Below, piece by piece: positions 2,354-60,586 of a stretch of 64,000 nucleotides of DNA (the stretch's first letter is position 1; each line of letters starts with the position of its first letter). The stretch spans positions 20,112 through 84,111 of IMG/VR virus record IMGVR_UViG_3300037384_000074, one strand, 5' to 3'. Both the position numbers and the translations under genes were made by a program. The DNA is from a virus (taxonomy: Duplodnaviria > Heunggongvirae > Uroviricota > Caudoviricetes). The notes below the pieces were generated by a model. The model worked only from the letters and a program-made list of their open reading frames with translations. It was not told where the DNA came from and did no database searches.

Positions 2354-2538
2354 AGAAGAAATTCACGGTACGAGTTAATGACTACTCCTATGAAGGCGGA
2401 ACCGCAATCGGGTTCGAGATTCCTGAAGACTTCCTAGAAGCAATGGATCTCAAACTACATGAGATTCTAGAATGGGAAGTTGACACAGAAACAAAGACTA
2501 CAACCATTACTAAGACAAATACAGTAGTAAGCCAGTAA
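2350..2538 (+). CDS. hypothetical small acidic protein
   Basis: 62-aa ORF, ATGA overlap with the primase stop. Confidence 0.4.
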   Translation: MKKKFTVRVNDYSYEGGTAIGFEIPEDFLEAMDLKLHEILEWEVDTETKTTTITKTNTVVSQ

Positions 2539-2539
2539 T

Positions 2540-6141: not shown

Positions 6142-6573
6142 ATGACTCATGAAACAAATCAGTGGATCTACAAAAATAAGCCCTTTTTAGAATCAGATGT
6201 TGGCGATTTCGTAGGATTCGTCTATCTTATTACTGAGATATCAACAGGCCGAAAGTATATTGGCAAAAAGATATTCTATAATAAGGTTGTAAAACCACCT
6301 CTGAAAGGCAAGAGCCGTCGGAGGATATCTCGGAAGTTCTCCGATTGGCAAACCTATTACTCATCAAGCGATGAAATCAAAGATATTGTTGCTGGGCAGG
6401 GTGACGCCGACTATAAACGAGAGATATTACGGCTTTGTATGAGCAAGGCTGAAATGTCATATTTCGAAACGAAAGAAATATTCTCTCGCGATGCACTTCT
6501 CAAGGATGAGTACATTAATAAATGGGTCAGTTCACGAATTCAGAAAAACCAGCTAAAAAGCGTTATCGTATAA
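6142..6573 (+). CDS. GIY-YIG endonuclease-domain protein (Seg-like, short)
   Basis: GFVYLITEISTGRKYIGKK carries the GIY...YIG motif. At 143 aa it lacks a DNA-binding extension. Confidence 0.5.
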   Translation: MTHETNQWIYKNKPFLESDVGDFVGFVYLITEISTGRKYIGKKIFYNKVVKPPLKGKSRRRISRKFSDWQTYYSSSDEIKDIVAGQGDADYKREILRLCMSKAEMSYFETKEIFSRDALLKDEYINKWVSSRIQKNQLKSVIV

Positions 6574-6997
6574 CGCAATTCCTTGGCGATATTGATGCTA
6601 AGGATCAGCCTGAAGACACTGCAGTGGTGACTCTTGAGGGGGCATGTCCAAACTGTGCTTCTGGTGAAAACTCACTAATCATCCTTAATACTAAAGCAAT
6701 TTCACCTACAGTGAAGAAGTTCTACTTTCGTTGCCTTCAATGCGACAGCGATGAAGGAAGTGTCCTACTTAATATGTGAGAATGTAATGAGAGAACATCT
6801 AGCCCTTACTATTTGTCTACAGTTGATGAGTGACTACGAAGACTTGACCGAGTCAATCGGTGAACCACGTCAGTTGACTTCACGTACTGCTGATGAAATA
6901 CCTCCACTAAATTCCCCGTTTCCATCCTTGAATGTTATGCACGACAATGTGTTGGCTCAGTTCAAGGCTCATTATAGCCATGTTAAGGAGTTCAATT

Positions 6998-14901: not shown

Positions 14902-14920
14902 CAATTAAGCTAAATAGAGG

Positions 14921-15697
14921 ATGAAACCAAACAGTAAAAAACAGTATATTCAAGAATTGGCCCCAATAATCCAGAACCTCTTAGATTCTGGACTCTCACT
15001 AAGTGAGGGTTGTACTAAACTGGGATTAATATACCACGCGACCTACGCTTTGTTAAAACGTCATACTAATTTAGTAATATCTACTAAGACTAACGGTAAA
15101 AGTGCATCAACATTAAAGGCCTTTCAAAATAAGATCAAAATTCCTGATTCCGAATTAGAAACGATAAAAGATCTATATTTCAATGAAATGATGTGTTTGA
15201 GCGCAATAGGTAAACGTTATAATACAACAGGTGCGACAATTATGTCTTTTATGAAAAGACATAATATCGTTAGACGAACTCATCTCGAAAACAAAATTCG
15301 AATGCTAGATCGACCTGAGTATAGAGCTCAACTAAAAGATTGGGGTGTTCAAGGATATCTAGCTAGACGAACTACACGAACTAAACCTGAACGATTGTTT
15401 GCAGAATTTCTTGAACGTAATAATATAAAATATGAAGAGCAATTTAGACGAGTAGGTAACAAGCACCCTTACGATTTTCGATTGAAAGACTACAATACGT
15501 TAGTTGAAATAGATGGACATTATTGGCACTCCAAACCTGAACAAAAACTGAAGGATGATATTCATACTAATGATGCAATTTCTAAAGGATTTTATGTGGT
15601 CCGTATTTGCACCAGTCAGTTAAAAAATGATAGTTTTAAAGTTATATTAGAGAGATTTTTGAATGAATGTGGATACTCTGTCGAATTTATCGAATGA
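14921..15697 (+). CDS. homing-endonuclease-like protein (Vsr/DUF559-type PD-(D/E)xK nuclease domain) inserted in the polymerase gene
   Basis: The C-terminus VEIDGHYWHSKPEQKLKDDIHTNDAISKGFYVVRI matches the DUF559/Vsr endonuclease pattern (E.DG..H ... D ... G..VvR). AGAGGA RBS. Different codon and amino-acid usage (K/N-rich) from its neighbours. Confidence 0.55.
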   Translation: MKPNSKKQYIQELAPIIQNLLDSGLSLSEGCTKLGLIYHATYALLKRHTNLVISTKTNGKSASTLKAFQNKIKIPDSELETIKDLYFNEMMCLSAIGKRYNTTGATIMSFMKRHNIVRRTHLENKIRMLDRPEYRAQLKDWGVQGYLARRTTRTKPERLFAEFLERNNIKYEEQFRRVGNKHPYDFRLKDYNTLVEIDGHYWHSKPEQKLKDDIHTNDAISKGFYVVRICTSQLKNDSFKVILERFLNECGYSVEFIE

Positions 15698-15813
15698 GGA
15701 ACTGACTAAACACCGTGATTCTCTCGAGCAAGAAGTGTTCCAGAATCATGGGTTTAGCAGCGCGATAAAGGTGTTACTTTAACGGGGGGTACGGCGCACT
15801 TTCGAACGAACAC

Positions 15814-16875
15814 ATGAGGTGGTATGCCGATGATCTAGCAGAGAGTATTACTCTTTCCGGCCAGCTCTCGGTTAAATGGGTAGAGCGTGACGTCAATTTG
15901 TTCCTCAACAACCTATTGAAGACCACTGATGTCGATTATATTGTTGCGATTGACACCGATTCTTGTTATGTGAAGGCTGACGCAGTTGTAAAACGCGCCT
16001 TCAAGGAAGAAACATACGATCAGGAAGAAGTCACTGTATTCCTTGAGAATTTTGCTGCAAAACTTGAACAGGTGATCGCTAACAGCCTTGAAGAACTATA
16101 TATATCAACCAATATCTTCGAGAAGAAGCTTCATATGAAGCTGGAAGCAATTGGTTCTGCTATTTGGACTTCCAAAAAGCACTATGTAATGGCTCTGAAG
16201 TCGTTCAAGGGAGTTCATCACTTCCCTCCAAAGATCAAGATGCAGGGAATCGAGGCAGTTAGATCATCAACGCCTAAGTTCTGCCGTGAGGCAATTAAGG
16301 AAGCTATTCCTAAGATCATTGAGGCAGATCGGGATTGGTTGAAAGCATTCATTGAAACCAAGCGTGAAGAGTTCTCCGAACTACCATTTGATCAAGTAGC
16401 ATCTCCTAGAGGTGTTAGTGATATCGACAAGTGGTTCGACAAGGACTCAATTTACATCAAGCGTACGCCGATCCAAGTGCGTGGAGCATTGCTATATAAT
16501 AACAAGGTAGCAACGACGAAGCTCAATTACGATCTTCCAATGATTCGTAGCGGTGACAAAATTCGATTCTGCTATATGAGACTACCAAATCCGTTAATGG
16601 AGAACGTGTTTGCTGTTCCGGATGAGATGCCAGAAGCGTTCCAATTGGATGACTACATCGATTATAGCAAGCAGTTCGATAAAACGTTCATGGAGCCAAT
16701 CAAGAATCTAATCAAAGCAGCAGGTATCGATATATCTGACAAGATCGACATCACTCAATTCTTCTCGGAGCCGCTTGCAGAGGAAGACCAGGATCCTACT
16801 GCAGGTCTCGATCTAATTGAAGACGATGGGTTCTGGGATAATACTGAAGAGGAAGATACAGTTTGGATAAACTAG
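15814..16875 (+). CDS. DNA polymerase family B, C-terminal portion (motif C + thumb). The motif B sequence is encoded in-frame upstream of this ATG, from 15769.
   Basis: YIVAIDTDSCYV is motif C (DTDS). The in-frame upstream codons 15769-15813 read RCYFNGGYGALSNEH, which matches T4 KILINSLYGALGNIH (motif B). Confidence 0.8.
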   Translation: MRWYADDLAESITLSGQLSVKWVERDVNLFLNNLLKTTDVDYIVAIDTDSCYVKADAVVKRAFKEETYDQEEVTVFLENFAAKLEQVIANSLEELYISTNIFEKKLHMKLEAIGSAIWTSKKHYVMALKSFKGVHHFPPKIKMQGIEAVRSSTPKFCREAIKEAIPKIIEADRDWLKAFIETKREEFSELPFDQVASPRGVSDIDKWFDKDSIYIKRTPIQVRGALLYNNKVATTKLNYDLPMIRSGDKIRFCYMRLPNPLMENVFAVPDEMPEAFQLDDYIDYSKQFDKTFMEPIKNLIKAAGIDISDKIDITQFFSEPLAEEDQDPTAGLDLIEDDGFWDNTEEEDTVWIN

Positions 16876-20294: not shown

Positions 20295-20466
20295 TTTTAT
20301 TATAATGTATCTAATAGTGAGTGGATCACTTTTGATCCAGACTCTACTATCAGATAACCTCGTTAATATGAGGTTGCGAGAGCGTTTCCGCAATACAAAT
20401 ATGGTGACCACTAGTGTATTTCTACTAGTGTTCTGGCCTCTAATCGTTATTATACACGGCCGATGA
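20284..20466 (+). CDS. small two-TM membrane protein
   Basis: 60 aa with two hydrophobic helices, adjacent to the spanins. Confidence 0.3.
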   Translation: MLTSFIIMYLIVSGSLLIQTLLSDNLVNMRLRERFRNTNMVTTSVFLLVFWPLIVIIHGR

Positions 20467-20888
20467 AATTAATCATTGCTGGCAGTAGAACCATCAATTC
20501 GATGGACGTTTTGTGCCGTGCTTTTGGCAAATTCTCTGACAAATTTGTTGGATTAGACATAATCGTCTCTGGGCATCAACCTAAAGGCGTGGATGCTCTT
20601 GGAGAGAAATTTGCAGAGGATTTTGATCTAGATATCAAGACATTTCCTCCTGACTACGACAATTATCCTCCAAAAGTTGCTCCGCTAATGCGTAATAAGC
20701 AAATGGCTCATTATGCAGATAAGGCGTTGATTGTATGGGACGGAATCTCAACTGGCTCTAAAAATATGGAGTGGAACATGAAACAGTTGAGGAAGCCTGT
20801 CTTCGTCTATAAGGTGGAAATCATCAAGGCGTTTGATGACTCAAATAGGGTATTCTACCAGTTACCGACTGGTGAGATTTTGGAGTAG
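20463..20888 (+). CDS. DUF2493 / YspA-like SLOG-family protein
   Basis: MKLIIAGSRTIN...IIVSGHQPKGVDALGEKFAED...VAPLMRNKQM...VWDGISTGSKNM matches the DUF2493 pattern (GSR ... G..GaD ... RN..M). Confidence 0.55.
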   Translation: MKLIIAGSRTINSMDVLCRAFGKFSDKFVGLDIIVSGHQPKGVDALGEKFAEDFDLDIKTFPPDYDNYPPKVAPLMRNKQMAHYADKALIVWDGISTGSKNMEWNMKQLRKPVFVYKVEIIKAFDDSNRVFYQLPTGEILE

Positions 20889-21338: not shown

Positions 21339-21752
21339 ATGGAAATCGATAATCACGAAGTAAGATTGTACGTCATTGTCCGAACTGATATGGATTCGAT
21401 GAATCCAGGTCGTGTTGCAGCTCAGGTCAGTCATGCCGCTTCACAGGTAGCGTGGGCAGCGTTCATTGTTCCTCGCGACTCCGAAATCCAGGCTCTATAT
21501 GCGGAGTGGGTCGGCACGAGGGCTGCTGACCAAATTCGAGGTTTTGGAACCACTATTGTTCTCGACGGCGGTGACAATTTCAATGAACTCTGTGAACTCG
21601 GAACACATCATGGCGTCGTAATCGACCCAACCTATCCGATTTTGGACGGTAAAATCGTTCATTTGGTCAACATTCCTACTTGCTCTTGGATCCTAGCACG
21701 TGTTAAGGATGTGCCTGAACAGATCCGAAATCTCCCTCTATACAAAGGATAA
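21339..21752 (+). CDS. peptidyl-tRNA hydrolase, PTH2 family
   Basis: RLYVIVRTDMDSMNPGRVAAQVSHAAS matches the PTH2 signature (vvRtDL.M..GK.aAQ..HAa). Confidence 0.5.
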   Translation: MEIDNHEVRLYVIVRTDMDSMNPGRVAAQVSHAASQVAWAAFIVPRDSEIQALYAEWVGTRAADQIRGFGTTIVLDGGDNFNELCELGTHHGVVIDPTYPILDGKIVHLVNIPTCSWILARVKDVPEQIRNLPLYKG

Positions 21753-21757
21753 TAACG

Positions 21758-22093
21758 ATGATTTACCGTGATAACTGCTTTTCGCCCGCAGATTGGAACA
21801 AGCTGAAGCTTGAGCTTGAGGTTGAATACTCTGAAATTCGACTCGATGTCTTTGATCTCTGCGCAGTTGACACTCTTACTCTCGATTATGAGACGTACAG
21901 CCTCTGGGTACATACCTGGAAGAGTGTTTACAGTGCCCTATCGGATATGATCCGTGAACTCAAGGAAGAGCAGGAATTCCACTACGTCAACAAGTATGCA
22001 AAGCTAGTGAACACTCTGCTGAATGCTCGAGCTTTTGCCAAACAGGAGCATCGGAAGCGTGTCAAGCCACTTATTGAAGACGATCAGTCGTAA
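21758..22093 (+). CDS. hypothetical protein
   Basis: 111-aa ORF. Confidence 0.4.
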   Translation: MIYRDNCFSPADWNKLKLELEVEYSEIRLDVFDLCAVDTLTLDYETYSLWVHTWKSVYSALSDMIRELKEEQEFHYVNKYAKLVNTLLNARAFAKQEHRKRVKPLIEDDQS

Positions 22094-22961
22094 AGAACTG
22101 GCTGTAACTAAGGGTCAGAAGTGGATCGCTGATAGCCTTCAATATGAAGTAATCATGGGTTCAACTGCCTATGGCGTATCAACGGACACTTCTGACCTCG
22201 ATATCTATGGTTGGTGTATCCCACCTAAATCGTTTGTCTTCCCTCATACAGAGGGTTATATTGACGGTTTAGGCCCTTCACCTCCTAGATTTGAACAGTT
22301 TTCACAGCACCATGTGAAAACTGCACGTCACGAGTACGATTTCACAATCTATAACCTCGTCAAATACGTTCAGTTAGTCGCTGAAAACAATCCAAACATG
22401 ATTGATTCACTGTTTGTACCTCCAAACTGTGTCACACATATTACCGAAGTTGGCAATATGTTGCGTGATCGACGTAAAGATCTCCTACACAAGGGATCGT
22501 GGCACAAGTTCAAAGGATATGCTTACTCTCAGATTCACAAGATCAAGAACAAGGAATTCAACCCTAATTGGACAACGAAGCGTAAAGACCGAATCCAAGA
22601 AATTGGCTTCGACAGCAAGCAGTCATACCACGCTGTCCGTTTGATCGACGAAGCCGAGCAGATCCTGCTTCACGGTGACATTGACCTACAGAGAAATCGT
22701 GAGCACTACAAGGCTATTCGTCGCGGTGATCTGACTTTCGACCAGGTTGCTGAATACTTCTTCAACAAAGAACGCGACCTCGAGAAAGTGTATCTCGAGT
22801 GTAAACTGCCTCATGGTCCCAATTGGCCCATGATTAATGGACTAGTTTATGATATTTTGGAACAGTTTTACGGGTCTATTTCTGAAGTACCGAGGCATAA
22901 TGATGTCTCATTACTTCTAAATGATCTAGAGAAACTATTCCATAGGTATAAACAAGCATGA
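22023..22961 (+). CDS. nucleotidyltransferase, pol-beta superfamily
   Basis: GSTAYGVSTDTSDLDIYGW is the GS-x(n)-DxD signature. Start uncertain (ATG 22023 overlaps the upstream ORF). Confidence 0.5.
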   Translation: MLELLPNRSIGSVSSHLLKTISRKELAVTKGQKWIADSLQYEVIMGSTAYGVSTDTSDLDIYGWCIPPKSFVFPHTEGYIDGLGPSPPRFEQFSQHHVKTARHEYDFTIYNLVKYVQLVAENNPNMIDSLFVPPNCVTHITEVGNMLRDRRKDLLHKGSWHKFKGYAYSQIHKIKNKEFNPNWTTKRKDRIQEIGFDSKQSYHAVRLIDEAEQILLHGDIDLQRNREHYKAIRRGDLTFDQVAEYFFNKERDLEKVYLECKLPHGPNWPMINGLVYDILEQFYGSISEVPRHNDVSLLLNDLEKLFHRYKQA

Positions 22962-23741: not shown

Positions 23742-24638
23742 ATGACAACAATTAGTGCCAAATCGGTACAGTCGTCTCGCGGTCTATCAACGGGCGAAAC
23801 TGTCCATTCAATTGAGGCTAGATATCCTCGATTTATCCACGCAGAAGTAATGACTCATCGCGATTTCTCGCGAAATGCAGCTAGCTCTCGAGCTATTCCG
23901 ATCCTTAAAATGATCAAGGATATCATCAAGGATCCGGCAGTCCCACTGCACCTTGGAGCCGCCCAGAAGGGAATGCAGGCAGATGTTGAGCTGACAGGAT
24001 GGCGCCGTTGGCTTGTTCGGACTGCTTGGCTTACTGCAATGTGGTTCGTAATTGTACTAGCTTTGATTGCATACGCAGCCGGTGCTCATAAGCAAGTTGT
24101 AAATCGAATGCTGGAGCCTTGGTCGCATATCACAGTAATCATTACCTCTTCGAGTTGGAATAACTTCTTCCATCTAAGGCGTCATCGAGATGCTGAGCCG
24201 CATATTCATATGCTCGCCGATAGGATTTACGAAGCAATCCAGAACGCTGATGTGTATACTATTGGTGATGGTGAATGGCACGTGCCATACGTAGATCGCG
24301 CTGTTGACATGTATAGTAAAACCGTGTATTCAGTGCGAGATGAGACTGGCAATGTTATCGTCTTGAGTCTAGACGAAGCTCTGATTGTATCAGCAGCACG
24401 TTGTGCATCAACATCTTATCGAACTGTTGACGGTAAGATCATGAGCTATGAACGCGCCAAGATTGTAGCTGACAAACTCGTTAAGGCAGACGTTCTACAC
24501 GCTTCACCTTTCGAACATCAGTGCACTCCTGATCGTAAGGGTCCAGGTGATCAGTGGGATAATCCTAGACTGCACGGCAATCTACGTGGTTTCAAGCAGG
24601 CTCGTAAGCTATATCCAAACGAATCTGTACCGGGATAA
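23742..24638 (+). CDS. thyX: flavin-dependent thymidylate synthase ThyX (motif variant THR for RHR)
   Basis: FIHAEVMTHRDFSRNAASSRA aligns with the ThyX signature F.H..vRHR..S....S.R. No ThyA-type motifs. Confidence 0.65.
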   Translation: MTTISAKSVQSSRGLSTGETVHSIEARYPRFIHAEVMTHRDFSRNAASSRAIPILKMIKDIIKDPAVPLHLGAAQKGMQADVELTGWRRWLVRTAWLTAMWFVIVLALIAYAAGAHKQVVNRMLEPWSHITVIITSSSWNNFFHLRRHRDAEPHIHMLADRIYEAIQNADVYTIGDGEWHVPYVDRAVDMYSKTVYSVRDETGNVIVLSLDEALIVSAARCASTSYRTVDGKIMSYERAKIVADKLVKADVLHASPFEHQCTPDRKGPGDQWDNPRLHGNLRGFKQARKLYPNESVPG

Positions 24639-24693
24639 TGTGTTGACTTGTAACATAAACATCGTATAATTTCGATAATAATGGAGATGTGAT

Positions 24694-25977
24694 ATGCGTG
24701 TTTATGAAGTTGGCGGCAAAGTTAGAGACTCTATATTGGGGATGGCATCAAATGACATTGATTATGTCATTGTTGGAGGCACCCATGAAGAGATGATTGC
24801 TGCCGGTTATAAGCAGGTTGGGGTCGATTTTCCAGTCTACATTGATGAAAAGGGTATCGAGCATGCTTTCGCTCGCACTGAGCGAAAGACTGGTGATGGA
24901 TACACGAGTTTCACTGTATCGACTCTGAATGTCACACTCGAAGAAGATCTTGCCCGCCGCGACCTCACTATCAACGCCATGGCGCAGCGAGCGAGATCTC
25001 ACCCACTCGATGATGGGTCCGACGATGGATATGACCATCATTGGATGGATACTGCCGCGGTAATCGATCCTTATAAGGGTCGTCGTGATCTCGACACTTG
25101 TGTGATTCGGCACGTGACAGACGCCGGGTTTGTTGAAGATCCTGTCCGAATCTTGCGAGTTGCGCGATTTTTGGCACGATTCCCCACGTTTGATGTCCAT
25201 CCTGACACCTTCAAGTTGATCAAGAAAATGGTCGACGACGGGATGGTTCATCATCTTGTACCTGATCGAGTCGCGCTAGAGCTCAAGAAGGCTCTATCAT
25301 CATCGGTTCCTTCTAGGTTCTTCTACTTCCTTCAAATGGTAGGGGCACTGGAAATACTGTTTCCTGAACTCCACGCTTTGATCGGAAAAACTCAGCCTTC
25401 TCGTCATCATCCTGAAGGGGATGCGTTCGTTCATACGATGCTCGTCCTCGAAGAGAGTGCAAATCGATCCGACATCATGTATCGTTGGGCAGCTCTCGTG
25501 CATGATCTTGGGAAGGGGACTTCTGATATAGCGAATCTCCCTCATCATTATGGGCATGAAGATCGTGGGCCTGCTCTTGTAGAGAAGATGGTTAAGCGTC
25601 TCAACCTGTCGAATGACTTCTTGAAGGTCGGGCAGTTTGTGGCGAAGTATCATACTCATGTTCATCGTGTCTTTGTGATGAAGGCTAGCACTATTGCCAA
25701 TATCGCAGAGCTCTCGGTCGTTCGAGATCGAAAGATGATAGAGTATCTGTGCATCACATCTAGCAACGATGCACGTGGGCGTGGGCCATACTATGCGCGC
25801 GTATCGTATCCAAATTGCGCTGCAATGTCCTCTGCTTTGCACGCTGCAGTAGATATCAACCTACGAGATGTAATGACTGAGGAAGAGATTGAAAAGGCTT
25901 CGATCGATAAGCGGAAACAAGTTCTGTTTCGAGCTCGAACCAACGCTGTCAGTAATGCACTCGCAAGATTCAAGTAG
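24694..25977 (+). CDS. cca: CCA-adding tRNA nucleotidyltransferase with HD phosphohydrolase domain
   Basis: Head MRVYEVGGKVRDSILG...DIDYVIVGG (GGxVRD, DxD) and HD domain HHPEGDAFVHTMLVLE...HDLGK; 427 aa, as in class II bacterial CCA enzymes. Confidence 0.8.
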   Translation: MRVYEVGGKVRDSILGMASNDIDYVIVGGTHEEMIAAGYKQVGVDFPVYIDEKGIEHAFARTERKTGDGYTSFTVSTLNVTLEEDLARRDLTINAMAQRARSHPLDDGSDDGYDHHWMDTAAVIDPYKGRRDLDTCVIRHVTDAGFVEDPVRILRVARFLARFPTFDVHPDTFKLIKKMVDDGMVHHLVPDRVALELKKALSSSVPSRFFYFLQMVGALEILFPELHALIGKTQPSRHHPEGDAFVHTMLVLEESANRSDIMYRWAALVHDLGKGTSDIANLPHHYGHEDRGPALVEKMVKRLNLSNDFLKVGQFVAKYHTHVHRVFVMKASTIANIAELSVVRDRKMIEYLCITSSNDARGRGPYYARVSYPNCAAMSSALHAAVDINLRDVMTEEEIEKASIDKRKQVLFRARTNAVSNALARFK

Positions 25978-25985
25978 GATTTACA

Positions 25986-26666
25986 TTGGACTATAATTTC
26001 CCAATCATTGCCAATTATGATGCTATCAAGTTTGCTCTAGAAGGCCCAGGTAGTGATGACTTTGTAGAGGTCGTAAAAGGCTCCTACAAAGTCATCAACT
26101 ACATTAAGATCTCTTCGGACACATTTCGACCAATTAATGTCGAAGGTATTGGTCACGAAGAACGTCAGAGACGTATCATTCGCCGCGAATTCCGTGGCTT
26201 GATCTTTGATGATAAGTCCGGTGATCTAATTCGTCGACCATATTCCAAGTTTTTCAACTTGAATGAACGTGAAGAAACGTTGAAGGAAACGATTGACTTC
26301 AATCAGCCTCATGATATTCTTCAAAAACTCGACGGGAGTATGGTGGCACCCTTCATCACAAGTGATGGAGTACTCCGCTTTGGAACAAAGATGGGAGAGA
26401 CTGATATCTCTCAACAGGCTCTCGACTACTGTAAAAAAAACGATAAAGATCTCGATTTCATTCGTTGGGTAATTGAAGAGCTCGGAAGCACACCCATTTT
26501 TGAGTGGTGTTCTAGGGCAAATCGTGTAGTAATCGACTACCCTCAGCCGCGATTCGTGTTGACCGCTTGTCGTGATATAGTATCAGGGACTTACTGGAGT
26601 TTCGATGAAATGCATGCTACCTTTGGCATGCAAAATTTCGAAATCGTGGGACATTTTAAGGTATAA
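25986..26666 (+). CDS. rnlA: RNA ligase 1 (T4 RnlA-like), N-terminal part with adenylylation motif I
   Basis: LQKLDGSMV is the KxDGS motif I, at the position expected for Rnl1. Ends at an in-frame TAA (26664-26666). Confidence 0.7.
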   Translation: MDYNFPIIANYDAIKFALEGPGSDDFVEVVKGSYKVINYIKISSDTFRPINVEGIGHEERQRRIIRREFRGLIFDDKSGDLIRRPYSKFFNLNEREETLKETIDFNQPHDILQKLDGSMVAPFITSDGVLRFGTKMGETDISQQALDYCKKNDKDLDFIRWVIEELGSTPIFEWCSRANRVVIDYPQPRFVLTACRDIVSGTYWSFDEMHATFGMQNFEIVGHFKV

Positions 26667-26669
26667 TTA

Positions 26670-27215
26670 GTGAAAACTGATATTGATTCCTTGCTTCAGG
26701 TCATTGTGGACCTTGAAGGGCAAGAAGGTGTAGTCGTTCGCTTTAGTGACGGCCACATGACAAAAATCAAGAGCTCCATTTACGTCAATATCCATCGTGC
26801 TAAGGATAATCTCCTGTACGAACGTCACGTCATTGAGATGATTCTTAATGAAACAGTGGATGATGTGAAGGCATTCTTGCCTGATATTGACAAGCAGAAC
26901 CTAGATCAGTACCAAGATAATATCTCAAAGTGGATCGACTCCACAGTTGAGCGCCTGTATTTACTTTGCTATAAGCCAATGATTGAAGAGAAATACTCTC
27001 GTAAACAGTTTGCAATCAATGTATCTGCTCAGGCTAAACCATTCGATTCATTTCTGTTTAAGAATTATGAGCAGATTCAGGAAGCTGACCCCAGTATATA
27101 CCATGAGTTTCTTGTTGAAGGTGTGGAACAAGCTCTACTGAAAGCCTGTAGTTCTAACTCTAGCTTGACAACGTTCAAGTCTATCGCAAATATCCATTTC
27201 AATTGGAGTCTATAA
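26670..27215 (+). CDS. rnlA: RNA ligase 1, C-terminal part (motifs IV and V), same frame as the upstream part
   Basis: EGQEGVVVRF is motif IV and HMTKIKS is motif V. The spacing from motif I (~132 aa) equals that in T4 Rnl1. It is separated from the N-terminal part by a single TAA plus one codon. Confidence 0.65.
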   Translation: MKTDIDSLLQVIVDLEGQEGVVVRFSDGHMTKIKSSIYVNIHRAKDNLLYERHVIEMILNETVDDVKAFLPDIDKQNLDQYQDNISKWIDSTVERLYLLCYKPMIEEKYSRKQFAINVSAQAKPFDSFLFKNYEQIQEADPSIYHEFLVEGVEQALLKACSSNSSLTTFKSIANIHFNWSL

Positions 27216-27688
27216 TGCCTAATTGTGTGCTTTTGGTAGGTCTGCCATGTTCTGGCAAGACCACTTTTGTTCGGAATCACCCCGAATATTGTGACAATCG
27301 TCGTTATGAAATCCTGAGCAGCGACGATATTCTTGAAGAGATGGCTGAGATCCTTGGTAAGACATACAATGAAGCTTGGCCTGATTATTATGCGTGGGCC
27401 GATTTCCTTTTCTGGGAAAGGCTTGATAAGGCAATCGCTGATAAGCGTAATTTTATTGTCGATCGCACGAGTCTGACGGTCAATACACGTCGTAAGATCC
27501 TCAGTAGAGTTCCTAAATCCTACAAGAAAATCGCTATCGATTTTAAGCCAAACCCGACTGTGACTAACAAGCGGAACGTTCGGCCTGGAAAGATTATCCC
27601 TAATGGGACTCTTTGGTCCATGCTTTGCGCTTATGAAATGCCCTCCTTCTTTGAAGGCTTTGATGATATTGAGCAGCGCCATGTTTGA
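27215..27688 (+). CDS. polynucleotide 5'-kinase, P-loop kinase domain only (T4 Pnk-like, no phosphatase domain)
   Basis: CVLLVGLPCSGKTTFVRNHP vs T4 Pnk IILTIGCPGSGKSTWAREF. 157 aa equals the T4 Pnk kinase domain. TAATG overlap with rnlA. Confidence 0.65.
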   Translation: MPNCVLLVGLPCSGKTTFVRNHPEYCDNRRYEILSSDDILEEMAEILGKTYNEAWPDYYAWADFLFWERLDKAIADKRNFIVDRTSLTVNTRRKILSRVPKSYKKIAIDFKPNPTVTNKRNVRPGKIIPNGTLWSMLCAYEMPSFFEGFDDIEQRHV

Positions 27689-27790
27689 AGCTCACGTAAT
27701 TAATGGAATTAAATTCGTATATCGTGTTACTATTAATGGCAATACCAACCGTAGGATTGAGTTGGTTGCTACATACCCAGATTGGAATGA

Positions 27791-28831
27791 TTGATGAGTG
27801 GTTTACAGAAGAAACAGATCAGCAAGCTAGTTGCTGACCGAGTAAAGTATTGGGCATTCTCTTTCAAGGATGCCAAGAACTTCAAGGACGGAAAGATTCT
27901 TGAACTAGAGAACTTTGAAGAGCCGACCGACGACGATAAGTCCAAGATTCGAGATTTCCAGCAGAGTATTATCCATAACACTGTAGTTACTGGCGGTGCG
28001 ATCGCCTCAATGCTTCTAGGAGAAGAAGTTAACGATCTCGACATCTATTTTAAGGATCGTGAAATCGCCAAGAAGGTTGCTCATTATTACATCAACACTA
28101 TGAAGGAAAAGCTTGGTACAACCAATCAGGTTTCACGTGTCGAAGTTATGGACAACACAACTGGAGGCGTTGATATCGTCATCAAGTCCATGGGTGTCGT
28201 ATCCGACGATAGCGGTGGTACTGGCGACTATGATTACTTCGAGGGTCGTACGGAAAACGATGTCAACGAATTCTTTAACAAATATAAGAAGGTTGCTGGT
28301 AAGAATGACGAGGGTCCGAAGCATGCGGTCTCATTCATCTCGTCTAACGCAATCACACTGAAGAACGATATCCAGATTATTCTACGATTCTGTGGCGATC
28401 CAAGTGAGATCCATAAGAACTTCGACTTCGCACATTGTACGAATTATTGGACTAGCCACACTGGCACAGTATATAATGAGGAAGCTCTGTCAGCACTGTT
28501 GGAAAGGCGGCTATATTACATTGGCTCACGTTACCCTGTAGCATCTCTGTTCCGAATTCGTAAGTTTGTTGAGCGTGGATATAGAATTTCTGGTGGAGAG
28601 ATCCTCAAGATTGCATATGACGTATCCAAGTTGGACTTAGATGAGGCGCATACACTCAAAGATCAGCTTTGTGGTATGGATCTAGCATTTTTCTCACAGG
28701 TCATTTCAATGCTCAATAACCGCGAACCTGGAACAACAATAGATAGGACATATCTTTTTAACGTCGTGGATCGGATATTCAAACTCGGAGAGACTGATGC
28801 TGATAATGGCATGGAACTTCATAACGACTGA
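27791..28831 (+). CDS. nucleotidyltransferase, CCA/poly(A)-polymerase head-like (pol-beta superfamily)
   Basis: VVTGGAIASMLLGEEVNDLDIYF resembles the class II CCA/PAP head (GGxxxxxLLGxxxxDxDI). Confidence 0.45.
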   Translation: MMSGLQKKQISKLVADRVKYWAFSFKDAKNFKDGKILELENFEEPTDDDKSKIRDFQQSIIHNTVVTGGAIASMLLGEEVNDLDIYFKDREIAKKVAHYYINTMKEKLGTTNQVSRVEVMDNTTGGVDIVIKSMGVVSDDSGGTGDYDYFEGRTENDVNEFFNKYKKVAGKNDEGPKHAVSFISSNAITLKNDIQIILRFCGDPSEIHKNFDFAHCTNYWTSHTGTVYNEEALSALLERRLYYIGSRYPVASLFRIRKFVERGYRISGGEILKIAYDVSKLDLDEAHTLKDQLCGMDLAFFSQVISMLNNREPGTTIDRTYLFNVVDRIFKLGETDADNGMELHND

Positions 28832-28878
28832 CCATTCCACACTATTGTGCTATATGGAGCAGTAAAGAATCGGAAACG

Positions 28879-29508
28879 TTGATGTGTAATGTAATGTGTA
28901 ACGATTGCGTCCTAAATCAAAACGCAAAGATCGTGTATGAGATTCATGTTACAGTTGATAGTTCTAGTCTATGTGACCTAGATATTCAGTGGTTTCAAAG
29001 GATGTGTTCAGCATGGGGAATCAAAGGTATCGTAATCGAAAACCTTAGTCCATCTGGAGAAGTCTCCGTCGATGTGATGACATCAAGCGTCGTTAAGACA
29101 ACATACCTTGATGCCTTTAATGAAATGAATGAGATTGCATCTGAGCTAACAGCGTTAGATTTTGATGTTATCAGGCGTAAAATTGAGACTGTTTCCTGGA
29201 ATTTCCCCGATAATCCGGACCAAAAGGGATATTTCGAAACACACATCGAATTCGACGTTGCTGACATCGATCATTTCAGTGTACTAGTGCGGCAGTTGGG
29301 TGGATATGTCAGTAGAAATGCGAATAAGCCTGGAAAGGCTATCGCTACTCTACGTAGAAATGCCCGCTCGTGGTTCCTATATGGCTACGATCTAGGTCCA
29401 TTTGTGGATGGGATTGAGTCGGCAGGATACGTAGCAAACAAAACACTTAATGAGTATTGTCCGTACGATGACAATCCAACTCATGATGATTCGTGGATTA
29501 AAGGGTAA
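28879..29508 (+). CDS. hypothetical protein
   Basis: 209-aa ORF inside the tRNA-repair cluster. Confidence 0.45.
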   Translation: MMCNVMCNDCVLNQNAKIVYEIHVTVDSSSLCDLDIQWFQRMCSAWGIKGIVIENLSPSGEVSVDVMTSSVVKTTYLDAFNEMNEIASELTALDFDVIRRKIETVSWNFPDNPDQKGYFETHIEFDVADIDHFSVLVRQLGGYVSRNANKPGKAIATLRRNARSWFLYGYDLGPFVDGIESAGYVANKTLNEYCPYDDNPTHDDSWIKG

Positions 29509-29512
29509 TATT

Positions 29513-29965
29513 ATGTCTCTATTCGAGAAGATTAAGAAAGATTATTACCGAACTCGCCTCGCTAAGGAAACAATCAGAATCAACCTATTGTCAACTCTGA
29601 TTGGCGATCTCGAGAGCTCTGCTAAGTTCGTTGATGGCAAGAAAGTTGTTGACGATCAGGCTGTAATCGGTATGATCAAAAAGTACCTCAAGAATAATGA
29701 AATCATTCTCGAGGCAGTTAAGCGAGTACCAGGTCGTTCTCCTGAAGAGGTGACCGCGCAGAGTGAATCAATCTATCGCACAACGAAGGAAATCGAAGTG
29801 TTGAACAGTTTTCTTCCTCAGCAGTTGTCTGAACAAGAGCTCAAAGATATCCTGAAGACTCTTTCGCAGCGGCCTGATTTCCCAAACTGGATGAAGTTCT
29901 TGAAGGCGAACTTCGCTGGACTGTATGATGGCAAGGTTGCTGCAGAAATCTTCAAGAATGCCTGA
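29513..29965 (+). CDS. GatB/YqeY-domain protein
   Basis: MSLFEKIKKDYYRTRLAKETIRINLLSTLIGDLES resembles the YqeY N-terminus (MSL...LRLSTLR). ATG 29513 follows the upstream stop. Confidence 0.5.
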   Translation: MSLFEKIKKDYYRTRLAKETIRINLLSTLIGDLESSAKFVDGKKVVDDQAVIGMIKKYLKNNEIILEAVKRVPGRSPEEVTAQSESIYRTTKEIEVLNSFLPQQLSEQELKDILKTLSQRPDFPNWMKFLKANFAGLYDGKVAAEIFKNA

Positions 29966-30041
29966 ATGGTCAGCCATAGACACAAATCTAGGCACATCTC
30001 CTATGATGCCAACTGATCCAACATTTAATTGGAGAGAATTT

Positions 30042-31133
30042 ATGCTTGAAACTATTGACGTTATCGAACACGTTGCAATGGATGTTGATATGACTGGCGG
30101 ACGAGCGCTAGCCACCGTCCGTCGCATTTCTGCACTAGATCCGATTCCAAACGCAGATCGGATCGAGCTTGCTACCGTCGATGGTTGGCAGGTTGTTGTC
30201 GCCAAGAATGTTGGTCATAAGGTAGGCGATCTTATCATTTATTTTGAAATCGACTCATTTTTGCCAATTGAGCCACAGTATGAGTTTCTTCGCAAGGGAT
30301 GTTACACCAAGAATACTGTTTACGGTGAAGGGTTCCGCCTCAAGACGATCCGCCTTCGCGGTGCCCTAAGTCAAGGGCTCATTATGCCTATGAGTGATAT
30401 GTATAGCTCTCTGCTTGGGTCTAATGATTTTTACGAAGGACAGGACGTTACCGAAATCCTCGGCGTCAAGAAGTATGAGAAGCCTCTTCCTGCATCTCTT
30501 GGGGGCATTGCTCGCGGCAATTTCCCGAGTTTCATCCCGAAGACTGATGAGGATCGTATCCAGAACTGCTTCGGTCGTCTGAAGCATAAGGTTCCAGACC
30601 AGCTCTACGAGGCTACAATCAAGCTTGATGGTACATCATTCACGGCGTATTATCATCGTGAGACTGATCGTTTCGGTGTCTGTTCGCGTAACCTCGATCT
30701 AGAGGAAACGGAAGGTAACCTATATTGGCAGATCGCTCGCCAGTTCAATATCGAAGATATTCTTTGCAATGCTGTCAGTGGATCTTTCGCCATTCAGGGT
30801 GAAATTATCGGCTCGGGTGTCAACGGCAACTGGGAAGGAATTGGTCACAACGAGCTTTATATTTTCAATGTATGGGACATTGAAAATCAGAAGTATCTTG
30901 ATTCCGAAGAGCGAATCGCTTTTGTCCAGGATATGGCTGGTCTCAAGAACGCGCCTGTAGTTGGCTATTATCGGTTCAGTGAATTTGATAGTGTCAATGA
31001 CTTCCTCCAGTTTGCTGATGGTCCTTCTATCTATAATGATCAGCGTGAAGGTGTTGTTTTCAAGGGTGTTGACGATCCTTCGATCAGTTTTAAAGTTATT
31101 AGCAACGCCTGGTTGATTTCATCTGGAGAATAA
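30042..31133 (+). CDS. ATP-dependent RNA ligase with N-terminal tRNA-binding OB domain (Myf/Trbp111-like)
   Basis: N-terminal IPNADRIELATVDGWQVVVAKN resembles the tRNA_bind domain (hPnADkL...VD.G...iV.ga.N); IKLDGTSFTAYY is the KxDG nucleotidyltransferase motif I; GGAGAG RBS. Confidence 0.6.
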   Translation: MLETIDVIEHVAMDVDMTGGRALATVRRISALDPIPNADRIELATVDGWQVVVAKNVGHKVGDLIIYFEIDSFLPIEPQYEFLRKGCYTKNTVYGEGFRLKTIRLRGALSQGLIMPMSDMYSSLLGSNDFYEGQDVTEILGVKKYEKPLPASLGGIARGNFPSFIPKTDEDRIQNCFGRLKHKVPDQLYEATIKLDGTSFTAYYHRETDRFGVCSRNLDLEETEGNLYWQIARQFNIEDILCNAVSGSFAIQGEIIGSGVNGNWEGIGHNELYIFNVWDIENQKYLDSEERIAFVQDMAGLKNAPVVGYYRFSEFDSVNDFLQFADGPSIYNDQREGVVFKGVDDPSISFKVISNAWLISSGE

Positions 31134-49596: not shown

Positions 49597-49680
49597 ACTA
49601 GGTATGCAGAATGGGGCTGCCGGCTGCTCATAACGGTCTCCCGCAAGGGCGAGTAGGTTCGATTCCTACACCTAGTACCA
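49597..49680 (+). tRNA. tRNA-like gene, anticodon CAU (Met or Ile-lysidine), encoded CCA, atypical long variable arm
   Basis: 7-bp acceptor stem ACTAGGT/ACCTAGT; D arm GCAG-aatgggg-CTGC; anticodon loop CUCAUAA; T arm GTAGG-TTCGATT-CCTAC; discriminator A then CCA. A 14-nt variable arm and A at position 8 are atypical. Confidence 0.5.
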
Positions 49681-60552: not shown

Positions 60553-60580
60553 CCAGGTTCGAGTCCTGGGAGGGCCACCA
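60553..60580 (+). other. tRNA-like 3' portion (T arm + acceptor 3' strand + CCA)
   Basis: CCAGG-TTCGAGT-CCTGG, then GAGGGCC-A-CCA. A possible 5' partner GGCTCTC sits 170 nt upstream at 60375. Confidence 0.35.
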
Positions 60581-60586
60581 AATTAG

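What the first reader, a model, noticed from the sequence alone, without database searches (positions are those of the whole stretch)
23742..31133. Expanded phage tRNA end-repair and maturation cluster
A 7.4-kb block of co-oriented genes concentrates tRNA-directed activities. It holds ThyX, a class II CCA-adding enzyme with an HD phosphoesterase domain, a T4 Rnl1-type RNA ligase, a polynucleotide 5'-kinase with no phosphatase domain, a second CCA-head-like nucleotidyltransferase, a YqeY/GatB-domain protein and a second ATP-dependent ligase fused to a tRNA-binding OB domain. A PTH2-family peptidyl-tRNA hydrolase sits 2 kb upstream (21339-21752). T4 needs only Pnk and Rnl1 to reverse PrrC anticodon-nuclease damage. 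This set additionally covers healing of the 2',3'-end (HD), resynthesis of CCA and tRNA targeting. That points to a broader counter-defence kit against host tRNA-cleaving or CCA-trimming immunity, or to phage control of the tRNA pool.
Basis: partly seen in the sequence, partly recalled or inferred. Interest (0 to 1): 0.85.

Follow-up and report, generated by a model that had tools for sequence, protein, structure and literature searches.

The report
Phage tRNA-repair genes with split ligase
An uncultured T4-like phage carries a compact set of RNA/tRNA repair genes of a kind already described for large phages; the one unusual feature is that its T4-type RNA ligase is encoded in two pieces that have stayed conserved.

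Summary

Corrections:
- Rnl1 is split into two ORFs (25986-26666 and 26670-27215).
- The second ligase is a standard Rnl5 (NgrRnl/DraRnl) enzyme. Its OB domain belongs to that family; it is not a tRNA_bind module.
- The "second CCA-head-like" enzyme belongs to Pfam Gad2 (PF26128).
- ThyX, a trypsin-like protease and a 208-aa protein of unknown function have no visible tRNA link.

The Rnl1 split recurs at the same residue in relatives of 76% and 64% identity, with different stop/start junctions and dN far below saturated dS. It is therefore a stable "gene in pieces".

Across 80 other viral loci only the Rnl1-kinase pair is generally linked (43 of 55 evaluable). The expanded cluster is specific to this clade; Rhizobium phage RHph_I1_18 shares CCA-Rnl1-kinase-Gad2-like.

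The counter-defence idea is already published (Iyer et al. 2021). Verdict: a new member of a known kind, of modest interest.

The parts
21339..21752 (+). PTH2-like peptidyl/aminoacyl-tRNA hydrolase (137 aa)
   Evidence: Pfam PTH2 1.9e-06, 28.5 bits against a cut-off of 23, but only profile positions 2-45 of 115 align. It is the ortholog of phiM12 gp291 'putative aminoacyl-tRNA hydrolase', 9e-20. Conserved in L004. PDB hits to Pth2 proteins are weak, E 0.1-0.7.
22059..22961 (+).
   Evidence: Pfam PF10127 3.9e-15. phrog_388 nucleotidyltransferase 9e-49. GS...DLD motif. 74% identical in L004 with dN/dS 0.08. RlaP adds 1-2 NMP to damaged RNA 3' ends (PMC12776372).
23742..24638 (+). Divergent ThyX-like protein (thymidylate synthesis; not a tRNA function)
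   Evidence: phrog_85 1e-71. Pfam Thy1 scores 22.3 bits, below the cut-off of 24.8. TIGR02170 scores 30.6 against 87.9.
24643..24670 (+). Sigma-70-like promoter candidate in the ThyX/CCA gap (TTGACT-16-TATAAT)
   Evidence: Best match in 18-35 kb, 11 of 12 positions. The -35 TTGAC is kept at the same place in L004. Promoter-like sites as a class are not enriched over shuffles (40 against 33 +/- 6), so this is only a candidate.
24694..25977 (+). Class II CCA-adding enzyme with C-terminal HD phosphoesterase domain (E. coli Cca type)
   Evidence: PolyA_pol 4.4e-14, PolyA_pol_RNAbd 2.5e-09, HD 1.4e-03. NF008137 408.5 bits over residues 1-422; the equivalog cut-off is 451. 42% identity to Salmonella Cca. 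Invariant residues include GG..R-D..DxD, RRD, EDPxR, and the HD-domain positions H239 P240 E241 D243 H247, H270 D271, H285 H288, H320 H324, D359.
25986..26666 (+). Rnl1 N-fragment (226 aa): nucleotidyltransferase motifs I-IIIa including the lysine nucleophile (K114, KLDG)
   Evidence: RNA_lig_T4_1 2.2e-19. Residues 68-213 align to T4 Rnl1 residues 53-200. It ends at TAA 26664-26666. N-fragments of 226/227 aa occur in relatives of 76% and 64% identity.
26670..27215 (+). Rnl1 C-fragment (181 aa): motif IV (EGVVV), motif V (KIK) and the C-terminal helical domain
   Evidence: phrog_562 positions 215-352 of 377, 7e-23. Residues 11-122 align to T4 Rnl1 residues 220-330. In L004 and L007 it is a separate ORF in a different frame, with its own ATG. 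dN 0.35 against dS 2.15 versus L004.
27215..27688 (+). Stand-alone P-loop kinase (157 aa), inferred polynucleotide 5'-kinase; no phosphatase domain
   Evidence: AAA_33 8e-17. phrog_505 polynucleotide kinase 1e-05. TIGR04075 bacterial Pnkp 6e-04. The nearest solved relative is PSTK, 5e-05. Homologs lie within 2 kb downstream of Rnl1 in 43 of 55 evaluable viral loci.
27681..27794 (+). Conserved 37-aa ORF between the kinase and the nucleotidyltransferase
   Evidence: Alignable small ORFs (37-48 aa...ELVA.YP.W...) sit at the same position in L004, L007 and RHph_I1_18. Function unknown.
27794..28831 (+). Gad2-family (PF26128) nucleotidyltransferase with a class-II CCA/poly(A)-polymerase-like head
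28882..29508 (+). 208-aa protein of unknown function (tandem ferredoxin-like fold); no evidence for a tRNA role
29513..29965 (+). YqeY/GatB-tail domain protein (150 aa)
   Evidence: Pfam YqeY 2.3e-10, 41.2 bits against a cut-off of 27. phrog_1460 9e-30. The 150-aa ortholog in L004 is 74% identical. A YqeY domain raises the tRNA affinity of D. radiodurans GlnRS, in cis (PMC1865053).
30090..31133 (+). Rnl5-family ATP-dependent RNA ligase (N-terminal OB plus C-terminal nucleotidyltransferase). The start codon is uncertain (29925, 30042, 30078 or 30090).
   Evidence: NgrRnl 5cot 6.8e-67 over the whole chain, residues 3-334. TIGR02306 RNA_lig_DRB0094 scores 205.7 bits against a cut-off of 151. KLDG motif I. 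82% identical in L004, where the gene is 342 aa.

Best explanation
The window is the replication and early-gene arm of an uncultured T4-like phage related to the rhizobiophages phiM12 and RHph_I1_18. It encodes an RNA/tRNA repair gene set.

Core: a tightly packed run, CCA/HD enzyme - Rnl1 N-fragment - Rnl1 C-fragment - kinase - 37-aa ORF - Gad2-family nucleotidyltransferase. It is probably transcribed from a promoter in the ThyX/CCA gap.

Inferred mechanism, by analogy with T4 Pnkp/Rnl1 and E. coli Cca:
1. [quoted passage not shown]
2. The kinase phosphorylates the 5'-OH.
3. The 3' phosphate is removed by the HD domain of the CCA enzyme, or by a phosphatase encoded outside this window.
4. RlaP, and possibly the Gad2-like class-II-type nucleotidyltransferase, add back excised nucleotides.
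5. Rnl1 seals the loop. Rnl1 is made as two polypeptides that must assemble, because motif I lies on one and motifs IV and V on the other.
6. The CCA enzyme rebuilds the 3' end.
7. PTH2 could free peptidyl groups from broken tRNAs, YqeY could aid tRNA binding, and Rnl5 seals nicks in duplex RNA.

Shown here: family assignments, catalytic motifs, gene order, conservation, and purifying selection on both Rnl1 halves. Inferred: every biochemical step, the substrates and the counter-defence role.
For: - Family and motif evidence.
- Tight packing of CCA through the Gad2-like gene (gaps 8, 3, -1, -8, -1 nt) and the best promoter-like site of the region just upstream.
- The order PTH2 - RlaP - protease - ThyX - CCA - Rnl1N - Rnl1C - kinase - Gad2-like - 208 aa - YqeY - Rnl5 is kept in L004 at 52-82% protein identity, with dN well below saturated dS.
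- CCA - Rnl1 - kinase - small ORF - Gad2-like is kept in L007 and in the cultured Rhizobium phage RHph_I1_18. There a Thg1-like gene is inserted and tRNA-Lys and tRNA-Gln genes lie next to it.
- The Rnl1-kinase pair is linked in 43 of 55 viral loci.
- Split Rnl1: same break point and three different junctions. The window has TAA-tta-GTG in frame; L004 has an overlapping TAATG and L007 has TAA-t-ATG, both out of frame.
- The window sequence is identical in an independent assembly.
- All three stop codons are in normal use, so recoding is not the explanation.
- Literature: RlaP acts on damaged RNA 3' ends (PMC12776372). Phage RNA-repair sets of this composition are described in PMC7824862.
Against: - No activity was tested.
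- The kinase has no detectable pairwise similarity to T4 Pnk. Its nearest solved relative is PSTK.
- No dedicated 3'-phosphatase (HAD, metallophosphoesterase or 2H) was found in the 64-kb window, so end-healing is incomplete unless the HD domain or a gene elsewhere does it.
- Outside this clade, CCA, Gad2-like, RlaP, YqeY and the 208-aa protein are not neighbours of Rnl1 (0 of 80 loci), Rnl5 is a neighbour in 3 of 80, and Gad2-like genes are near Rnl1 in 1 of 22 loci.
- phiM12 disperses part of the set.
- Unrelated genes (protease, ThyX, 208-aa protein) are interleaved.
- Rnl5 enzymes seal duplex nicks rather than anticodon loops (established knowledge on NgrRnl and DraRnl).
- T4 Rnl1 also has a tail-fibre attachment role.
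- Promoter and terminator scans are not above background overall.
Confidence: 0.55

Rival explanations
1. The cluster is a by-product of genome organisation, not one functional unit. Accessory nucleic-acid enzymes accumulate in the early/replication arm of T4-like genomes. Only Rnl1 plus the kinase work together. The CCA enzyme matures or maintains tRNAs generally, Rnl5 and RlaP serve other RNA or DNA transactions, and the Gad2-like enzyme counters a DNA-targeting defence such as Gabija.
For: - Only Rnl1-kinase linkage is general (43 of 55). CCA, Gad2-like, RlaP, YqeY and the 208-aa protein are absent from 80 other Rnl1 neighbourhoods; Rnl5 occurs in 3 and PTH2 in 1.
- Gad2-like genes are near Rnl1 in 1 of 22 loci.
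- phiM12 has part of the set dispersed among many small ORFs (about 60 annotated CDS across that span), in a different order.
- The block is flanked by primase, RNR, RNase H, DNA polymerase, UvsX, a DnaB-like helicase and NAD-dependent DNA ligase, and is interleaved with ThyX and a protease.
- A Gad2 family member was shown to inhibit Gabija (bioRxiv 10.1101/2023.05.01.538930).
Against: - CCA through the Gad2-like gene are packed with overlapping or near-touching stop and start codons, and kept in that order in four phages down to about 50% protein identity.
- RHph_I1_18 adds a Thg1-like gene within this run and has tRNA genes just downstream of it.
- The Gad2-like fold is closest to tRNA nucleotidyltransferases.
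Confidence: 0.3
2. The set mainly serves phage control or maturation of the tRNA pool (processing of phage-encoded tRNAs and translation optimisation) rather than repair of defence-inflicted damage.
For: - CCA enzymes, PTH2 and YqeY are housekeeping-type translation factors.
- RHph_I1_18 has tRNA genes beside the cluster.
- T4-like phages with CCA-type and YqeY genes have been known since 2006 (PMC1524935).
Against: - The window has only two ARAGORN tRNA calls, 18 and 28 kb away, and neither is supported by Rfam even at E<=1.
- The first of them already encodes its 3' CCA.
- Ligase plus kinase plus RlaP are repair enzymes, not maturation enzymes.
Confidence: 0.1
3. The interrupted Rnl1 is a pseudogene or an assembly error, so the heal-and-seal core is defective.
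For: - An in-frame TAA interrupts the nucleotidyltransferase domain before motifs IV and V.
- 76 of 77 complete Rnl1 genes in other viral loci are intact.
Against: - The sequence is identical in an independent assembly.
- The same break point occurs in relatives of 76% and 64% identity, with proper start codons and different frames.
- There are no further stops or frameshifts.
- dN is 0.18 (N-fragment) and 0.35 (C-fragment) against saturated dS.
- All catalytic motifs are kept.
- This phage also has a split DNA polymerase gene carrying an HNH endonuclease, and other lineages split Rnl1 in the same linker, one with an HNH gene between the halves.
Confidence: 0.03

Closest known systems
Phage T4 Pnkp + Rnl1 tRNA heal-and-seal pathway (counter to the PrrC anticodon nuclease)
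   Same: Rnl1-family ligase with motifs I, IV and V and the C-terminal domain. A P-loop kinase gene is linked to it.
   Different: - The kinase lacks the DxDxT phosphatase domain and shows no pairwise similarity to T4 Pnk.
- Rnl1 is encoded as two polypeptides.
- The genes are adjacent here, whereas in T4 they are not (own knowledge).
Phage RNA-repair gene sets described by Iyer, Anantharaman, Krishnan, Burroughs and Aravind 2021 (PMC7824862, section 3.4.9)
   Same: The same inventory: ATP-dependent RNA ligases, PNK, RlaP, CCA-adding enzyme, PTH2, and HD-type phosphoesterases as occasional phosphatases. The proposed role is the same: countering host RNase effectors.
   Different: - The genome here is about 136 kb or more rather than a jumbo phage.
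- The genes are unusually compact.
- The set includes a split Rnl1, an Rnl5-type ligase, a Gad2-family nucleotidyltransferase and YqeY. YqeY is not mentioned in that paper (0 occurrences); it was not searched for Rnl5 or Gad2.
Rhizobium phage RHph_I1_18 (MN988519) and Sinorhizobium phage phiM12 group (Emdodecavirus)
   Same: - These are the closest cultured relatives: CCA 44-48% identical and Rnl5 48% identical in phiM12.
- RHph_I1_18 has CCA - Rnl1 - kinase - small ORF - Gad2-like in the same order.
   Different: - Rnl1 is intact in both.
- RHph_I1_18 adds Thg1-like, DUF1127 and tRNA genes, and has a different second ligase.
- phiM12 disperses the genes over about 23 kb and lacks the kinase and the Gad2-like gene in that stretch.
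'Genes in pieces' of T4-related phages: Aeh1 nrdA split by mobE, T4 genes 39/60, split gene 43 (PMC2988022)
   Same: - An essential enzyme is split into two ORFs at a surface linker and remains under selection.
- Free-standing endonucleases are associated with the locus: an HNH gene lies between the Rnl1 halves in L010, and an HNH-like gene with a duplicated Rnl1 5' end is present in L004.
   Different: - The gene affected is rnlA. I found no report of a split Rnl1 in the held literature.
- In this window no endonuclease remains. Only 3 nt separate the halves.
Naegleria gruberi / Deinococcus radiodurans Rnl5 RNA ligases
   Same: Full-length similarity (6.8e-67), an N-terminal OB plus C-terminal adenylyltransferase architecture, and a score above the TIGR02306 cut-off.
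   Different: It is phage-encoded. The substrate in vivo is unknown.
Gad2 (Gabija anti-defence 2) of SPbeta-like Bacillus phages
   Same: Same Pfam family (PF26128). A predicted nucleotidyltransferase with a conserved GG...DxD motif.
   Different: - The homologs found in Bacillus phage records (SP-10, Goe26, SBSphiC, Nachito) are only about 33% identical; SPbetaL7 Gad2 itself was not compared.
- Here the gene sits downstream of Rnl1-kinase.
- Anti-Gabija activity was not tested, and no mechanism for Gad2 turned up in the held literature (one search; the hits were not read).

Membership tests
T4 Rnl1 family (PF09511 / TIGR02308) | Nucleotidyltransferase domain with motif I lysine (KxDG) | tested here: met
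   K114 in KLDG aligns with T4 K99. PF09511 70.7 bits against a cut-off of 28.3.
T4 Rnl1 family (PF09511 / TIGR02308) | Motif IV (EGxx) and motif V (KxK) completing the active site | tested here: met
   EGVVV...KIK in the C-fragment aligns to T4 residues 220-330. These motifs lie on a separate polypeptide.
T4 Rnl1 family (PF09511 / TIGR02308) | C-terminal helical domain (T4_Rnl1_C) | tested here: inconclusive
   PF20819 scores 17.2 bits, below the cut-off of 27. However, phrog_562 positions 215-352 give 7e-23, and the T4 alignment runs to residue 330.
T4 Rnl1 family (PF09511 / TIGR02308) | Single polypeptide of about 375-400 aa | tested here: not met
   There are two ORFs of 226 and 181 aa. 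Each half scores 50.7 bits against the TIGR02308 equivalog cut-off of 242.
T4 Rnl1 family (PF09511 / TIGR02308) | Seals tRNA anticodon-loop breaks with 3'-OH and 5'-PO4 ends | not testable with these tools
   Needs biochemistry.
Class II CCA-adding enzyme, multifunctional Cca type (NF008137) | Head domain GG...DxD, RRD and EDxxR motifs | tested here: met
   Invariant G7 G8 R11 D12 D21 D23, R88 R89 D90, E148 D149 P150 R152 in the alignment with Salmonella Cca. PolyA_pol 53.3 bits.
Class II CCA-adding enzyme, multifunctional Cca type (NF008137) | C-terminal HD phosphohydrolase domain with H...HD...H...D residues | tested here: met
   H239, H247, H270-D271, H285, H288, H320, H324 and D359 are invariant with Salmonella Cca. 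Pfam HD alone is below its cut-off (19.3 against 22).
Class II CCA-adding enzyme, multifunctional Cca type (NF008137) | Equivalog-level score | tested here: not met
   408.5 bits against a cut-off of 451, over the full length. It is a homolog; orthologous function is inferred.
T4-type polynucleotide kinase-phosphatase (Pnkp) | P-loop 5'-kinase domain | tested here: inconclusive
   The P-loop GLPCSGKT is present and AAA_33 scores 8e-17. Hits to PNK models are only weak: phrog_505 1e-05 and TIGR04075 6e-04. Conserved adjacency to Rnl1 supports the assignment.
T4-type polynucleotide kinase-phosphatase (Pnkp) | DxDxT (HAD) 3'-phosphatase domain | tested here: not met
   The protein is 157 aa and kinase only. 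No HAD-Pnkp or metallophosphoesterase homolog exists anywhere in the window.
Rnl5 (DraRnl/NgrRnl; TIGR02306) | N-terminal OB domain plus C-terminal adenylyltransferase, score above the curated cut-off | tested here: met
   205.7 bits against 151.15. 5cot 6.8e-67 over residues 3-334. PHA02142 OB 1.3e-34 plus RNA_ligase 6.8e-25.
   Pfam reports only the PHA02142 OB and RNA_ligase for this ORF at E<=0.01. The OB is the Rnl5 N domain.
RlaP (PF10127) | Pfam match above the cut-off and a Pol-beta GS...DxD motif | tested here: met
   56.7 bits against 23. GSTAYGVSTDTSDLD.
Gad2 (PF26128) | Pfam family match | tested here: inconclusive
   The assignment comes from precomputed tables. The model is absent from the local Pfam copy, which gave 0 hits. 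Homologs of about 33% identity exist in Bacillus phage records.
Gad2 (PF26128) | Inhibits Gabija defence | not testable with these tools
   Needs phage and host genetics.
YqeY (PF09424) | Pfam match above the cut-off | tested here: met
   41.2 bits against 27, covering 140 of 143 profile positions.
PTH2 (PF01981) | Pfam match above the cut-off over the catalytic domain | tested here: inconclusive
   28.5 bits against 23, but only profile positions 2-45 of 115 align. PDB hits to Pth2 and Bit1 have E 0.1-0.7.
ThyX (PF02511 / TIGR02170) | Score above the curated cut-offs | tested here: not met
   22.3 against 24.8 and 30.6 against 87.9. Only phrog_85 is strong, at 1e-71. This is a divergent ThyX-like protein.

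The most novel reading that the evidence does not exclude
In this phage clade Rnl1 would be an obligate two-subunit RNA ligase whose active site is assembled from two polypeptides, a relic of homing-endonuclease invasion. The Gad2-family, class-II-like nucleotidyltransferase that always follows Rnl1-kinase would work with it by rebuilding RNA or tRNA 3' ends. That would give the Gad2 anti-defence family an RNA-end-repair mechanism. It would also make the CCA-to-Gad2-like run a self-contained operon against tRNA-nuclease and CCA-trimming defences.
Probability: 0.12. Interest if true: 0.6.

Novelty: new member of a known kind. Interest (0 to 1): 0.35.

Why it matters
If the module works as inferred, it is a compact natural example of how a mid-sized T4-like phage combines end-healing, nucleotide re-addition, sealing and CCA rebuilding against tRNA-targeting immunity.

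RHph_I1_18 is a culturable relative in which this could be tested.

The conserved two-piece Rnl1 offers a natural split-enzyme system for studying how an RNA ligase active site assembles. It also adds rnlA to the short list of phage 'genes in pieces'.

The placement and fold of the Gad2-like enzyme give a testable hint that this anti-defence family acts on RNA 3' ends.

None of this changes current concepts. The counter-defence idea and most components are already in the literature.

Tried and rejected
- Stop-codon recoding or readthrough as the cause of the in-frame TAA. Rejected: TGA, TAA and TAG all terminate genes here (18, 15 and 5 of 38 genes), and the halves are out of frame in L004 and L007.
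- Sequencing error. Rejected: an independent assembly is identical.
- The 208-aa ORF as the missing 2',3'-cyclic phosphodiesterase. Its HVTV and THIEF motifs suggested a 2H enzyme. Rejected: the second motif is not H-x-T/S in the family. The AF2 model is a tandem ferredoxin-like fold with no 2H or CYTH match. It is absent from 80 Rnl1 neighbourhoods. Its function stays unknown.
- Search for HAD-Pnkp, metallophosphoesterase, macro-domain or Thg1 homologs in the window. None found. Pfam on about 50 further ORFs found no phosphoesterase.
- General linkage of Gad2-like genes to RNA repair. Not found: 1 of 22 loci.
- Megablast of the block against 50,697 phage records. No match.
- Rfam scan of the window. 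Nothing, not even the two ARAGORN tRNAs.
- The search for related loci with the 208-aa family alignments failed because no conserved stretch was available.
- The afdb50 fold library was unavailable.
- Literature searches for a split rnlA and for a Gad2 mechanism turned up nothing relevant among the hits I read; the Gad2 hits were not read.

Full report
**Context**

The window is the replication and early-gene arm of a T4-like phage. Upstream of the finding lie:
- a primase, class I ribonucleotide reductase, T4-type RNase H and PhoH;
- a family-B DNA polymerase split by an HNH endonuclease gene;
- UvsX and a DnaB-like helicase.

Downstream lie an SPFH protein, an NAD-dependent DNA ligase and, from about 60 kb, tail proteins.

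The 7.4-kb block has no megablast match in 50,697 phage records. The same DNA occurs, base for base, in an independent public assembly (L003) and on a 136-kb JGI contig.

The closest cultured relatives by protein are Rhizobium phage RHph_I1_18 and the Sinorhizobium phiM12 group, at 44-48% identity.

**Checking the observation**

- The CCA enzyme (24694-25977) matches PolyA_pol and its RNA-binding domain. It aligns over its whole length to the NCBIfam model for the multifunctional E. coli-type Cca, 408 bits, slightly under the equivalog cut-off.
- It is 42% identical to Salmonella Cca. The head motifs and the histidine/aspartate residues of the HD domain are invariant.
- The kinase (27215-27688) is a 157-aa P-loop protein with no phosphatase domain.
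- YqeY (29513-29965) and PTH2 (21339-21752) pass Pfam's cut-offs. The PTH2 match covers only the N-terminal part of the profile.
- The ThyX-like protein is divergent: below the Pfam and NCBIfam cut-offs, but phrog_85 gives 1e-71.

**Corrections**

1. The Rnl1-type ligase is not one gene. An in-frame TAA at 26664-26666 divides it into a 226-aa and a 181-aa ORF.
2. The second ligase is a textbook Rnl5 enzyme. It matches the Naegleria gruberi RNA ligase structure end to end (6.8e-67) and passes the curated TIGR02306 (DraRnl) cut-off. Its OB domain is the family's own N-terminal domain. No tRNA_bind-type match exists. The roughly 55 extra N-terminal residues of the longest ORF are probably not translated.
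4. RlaP was recently shown to add one or two nucleotides to damaged RNA 3' ends (PMC12776372).

**The split Rnl1**

The N-fragment aligns with T4 Rnl1 residues 53-200 and holds the motif I lysine (K114, KLDG). The C-fragment aligns with residues 220-330 and holds motif IV (EGVVV), motif V (KIK) and the C-terminal domain. The active site is therefore divided between two polypeptides.

This is neither an error nor a dead gene:
- Relatives at 76% (L004) and 64% (L007) identity break at exactly the same residue, after ...HFK[V/F/G].
- Their junctions differ. The window has TAA-tta-GTG in frame. L004 has an overlapping TAATG, and L007 has TAA-t-ATG; both are out of frame.
- Both halves show dN far below a saturated dS.
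- All three stop codons are used normally in this phage.

Among 77 complete Rnl1 genes in other IMG/VR loci, 76 are intact and one is split. Two further lineages found through the protein search are split about 20 residues earlier in the same linker. One has an HNH endonuclease gene between the halves.

L004 also carries a duplicated Rnl1 5' end next to an HNH-like gene. The window's own DNA polymerase gene is split by an HNH endonuclease.

This matches the 'genes in pieces' phenomenon known for nrdA, genes 39/60 and gene 43 of T4-related phages (PMC2988022). I found no report of it for rnlA.

**Is the cluster a unit?**

From CCA to the Gad2-like gene the ORFs nearly touch or overlap: gaps of 8, 3, -1, -8 and -1 nt. 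The best sigma-70-like site of the 17-kb region (11 of 12 positions) sits in the 55-nt gap before CCA, and its -35 element is conserved in L004. Promoter- and terminator-like sites are not enriched overall, so this is only a candidate.

Conservation of order:
- L004 keeps the whole order from PTH2 to Rnl5, with three endonuclease-type insertions on the other strand.
- L007 and RHph_I1_18 keep CCA - Rnl1 - kinase - small ORF - Gad2-like. RHph_I1_18 adds a Thg1-like gene within that run and has tRNA-Lys and tRNA-Gln genes just downstream of it.

Against a general functional linkage:
- In 80 viral loci with more distant Rnl1 genes, a stand-alone kinase homolog follows within 2 kb in 43 of 55 evaluable cases.
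- CCA, Gad2-like, RlaP, YqeY and the 208-aa protein never appear in those loci. Rnl5 appears three times and PTH2 once.
- Of 22 loci with Gad2-like relatives, only one has an Rnl1 nearby.
- phiM12 has PTH2-like, Rnl5, RlaP-like (nrdC.11), Rnl1, the 208-aa protein and CCA spread over about 23 kb, with no kinase or Gad2-like gene in that stretch.

The robust unit is therefore Rnl1 plus the kinase. The expanded arrangement is a trait of this clade.

**Mechanism**

By analogy with T4 Pnkp/Rnl1 and E. coli Cca (established knowledge), the most likely sequence is:
1. The kinase phosphorylates 5'-OH ends left by a host tRNA nuclease.
2. The 2',3'-cyclic phosphate is removed.
3. RlaP, and perhaps the Gad2-like enzyme, restore excised nucleotides.
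4. The two-piece Rnl1 seals the break.
5. The CCA enzyme rebuilds trimmed 3' ends.

Possible supporting roles:
- PTH2 could clear peptidyl groups from broken tRNAs.
- YqeY could aid tRNA binding. A YqeY domain does this in cis for D. radiodurans GlnRS (PMC1865053).
- Rnl5 would seal duplex nicks.

The weak point is 3'-end healing. No HAD, metallophosphoesterase or 2H enzyme is detectable in the 64 kb. That leaves the HD domain of the CCA enzyme, or a gene in the unseen half of the genome. All of these steps are inferred; none was tested.

**The 208-aa ORF**

I tested it as a candidate phosphodiesterase.
- It belongs to a family of about 550 representatives with thirteen invariant polar or aromatic residues. 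Many of the listed members are about 300-345 aa with an extra N-terminal region; 7 of 8 of these scanned gave a weak, below-cut-off MazG or MazG-like match there.
- Structural relatives occur only among uncharacterised proteins of T4-like phages and giant viruses.

Nothing ties it to tRNA.

**Comparison with the literature and verdict**

Iyer et al. 2021 (PMC7824862, section 3.4.9) already describe phage RNA-repair sets built from Rnl1/Rnl2/RtcB ligases, PNK, phosphoesterases (including HD), RlaP, CCA-adding enzyme, Thg1 and PTH2. They interpret these as counters to host RNase effectors.

T4-like phages with CCA-type and YqeY genes were noted in 2006 (PMC1524935). RHph_I1_18, which shares the core, is public and partly annotated.

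The finding is a correct and fairly complete annotation of a new, compact member of a known kind of system. Its added points of interest are the conserved two-piece Rnl1 and the position and fold of the Gad2-family enzyme.

Interest is modest, at 0.35.

Noticed in passing
window 13372-16875: The family-B DNA polymerase (gp43-like) is also in pieces. The exonuclease and N-terminal polymerase part is at 13372-14901, a 258-aa HNH/Vsr-like homing endonuclease at 14921-15697, and the C-terminal polymerase part at 15814-16875.
   Followed up: partly
L004 9061-9982: In the 76%-identity relative, a 58-aa ORF duplicates the first 50 residues of Rnl1 (78% identical). It is followed by a minus-strand 250-aa HNH-like gene, between CCA and the resident Rnl1. 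This looks like the footprint of a mobile endonuclease insertion.
   Followed up: partly
L010 8001-9768; L008 3796-5252; L103 7956-9183: Other phage lineages split Rnl1 about 20 residues upstream of the window's break, in the same linker. L010 has an HNH endonuclease gene between the halves, and separate HAD-phosphatase and kinase genes on either side.
   Followed up: partly
window 28882-29508: A 208-aa protein from a large, uncharacterised viral family (T4-like phages and giant viruses such as Klosneuvirus and Bodo saltans virus). It has 13 invariant residues and a tandem ferredoxin-like fold; many homologs carry an extra N-terminal region with a weak, below-cut-off MazG-like match.
   Followed up: yes
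window 27681-27794: A 37-aa ORF between the kinase and the Gad2-like gene is conserved in sequence and position in L004, L007 and RHph_I1_18.
   Followed up: partly
window 49597-49680 and 59565-59636: The two ARAGORN tRNA calls (an 84-nt Met with a long variable arm and an encoded ACCA end, and a Phe) get no Rfam tRNA match even at E<=1. They also fold no better than shuffled sequence. They are doubtful or atypical tRNAs.
   Followed up: partly
window 24694-25977, residues about 98-122: The CCA enzymes of the window and L004 carry an acidic insertion of about 20 residues after the RRD motif. It is absent from Salmonella, RHph_I1_18 and phiM12.
   Followed up: no
window 60000-64000: GC rises from about 45% to 55% where two ORFs of about 460 aa with tail-protein PHROG hits begin. 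This is probably the start of the structural module.
   Followed up: partly
window 6142-6573; 20463-20888; 58039-58680: Three other accessory genes: a SegE-like GIY-YIG endonuclease downstream of the RNR genes, a YAcAr (SLOG) protein, and an Nmad5 'nucleotide modification associated' protein.
   Followed up: no
L002 (RHph_I1_18) 2520-3251 and 6740-6918: The cultured relative has a Thg1-like tRNA-His guanylyltransferase between CCA and Rnl1, and tRNA-Lys(UUU) and tRNA-Gln genes just after the Gad2-like gene. tRNA-Lys is the PrrC target (own knowledge).
   Followed up: no
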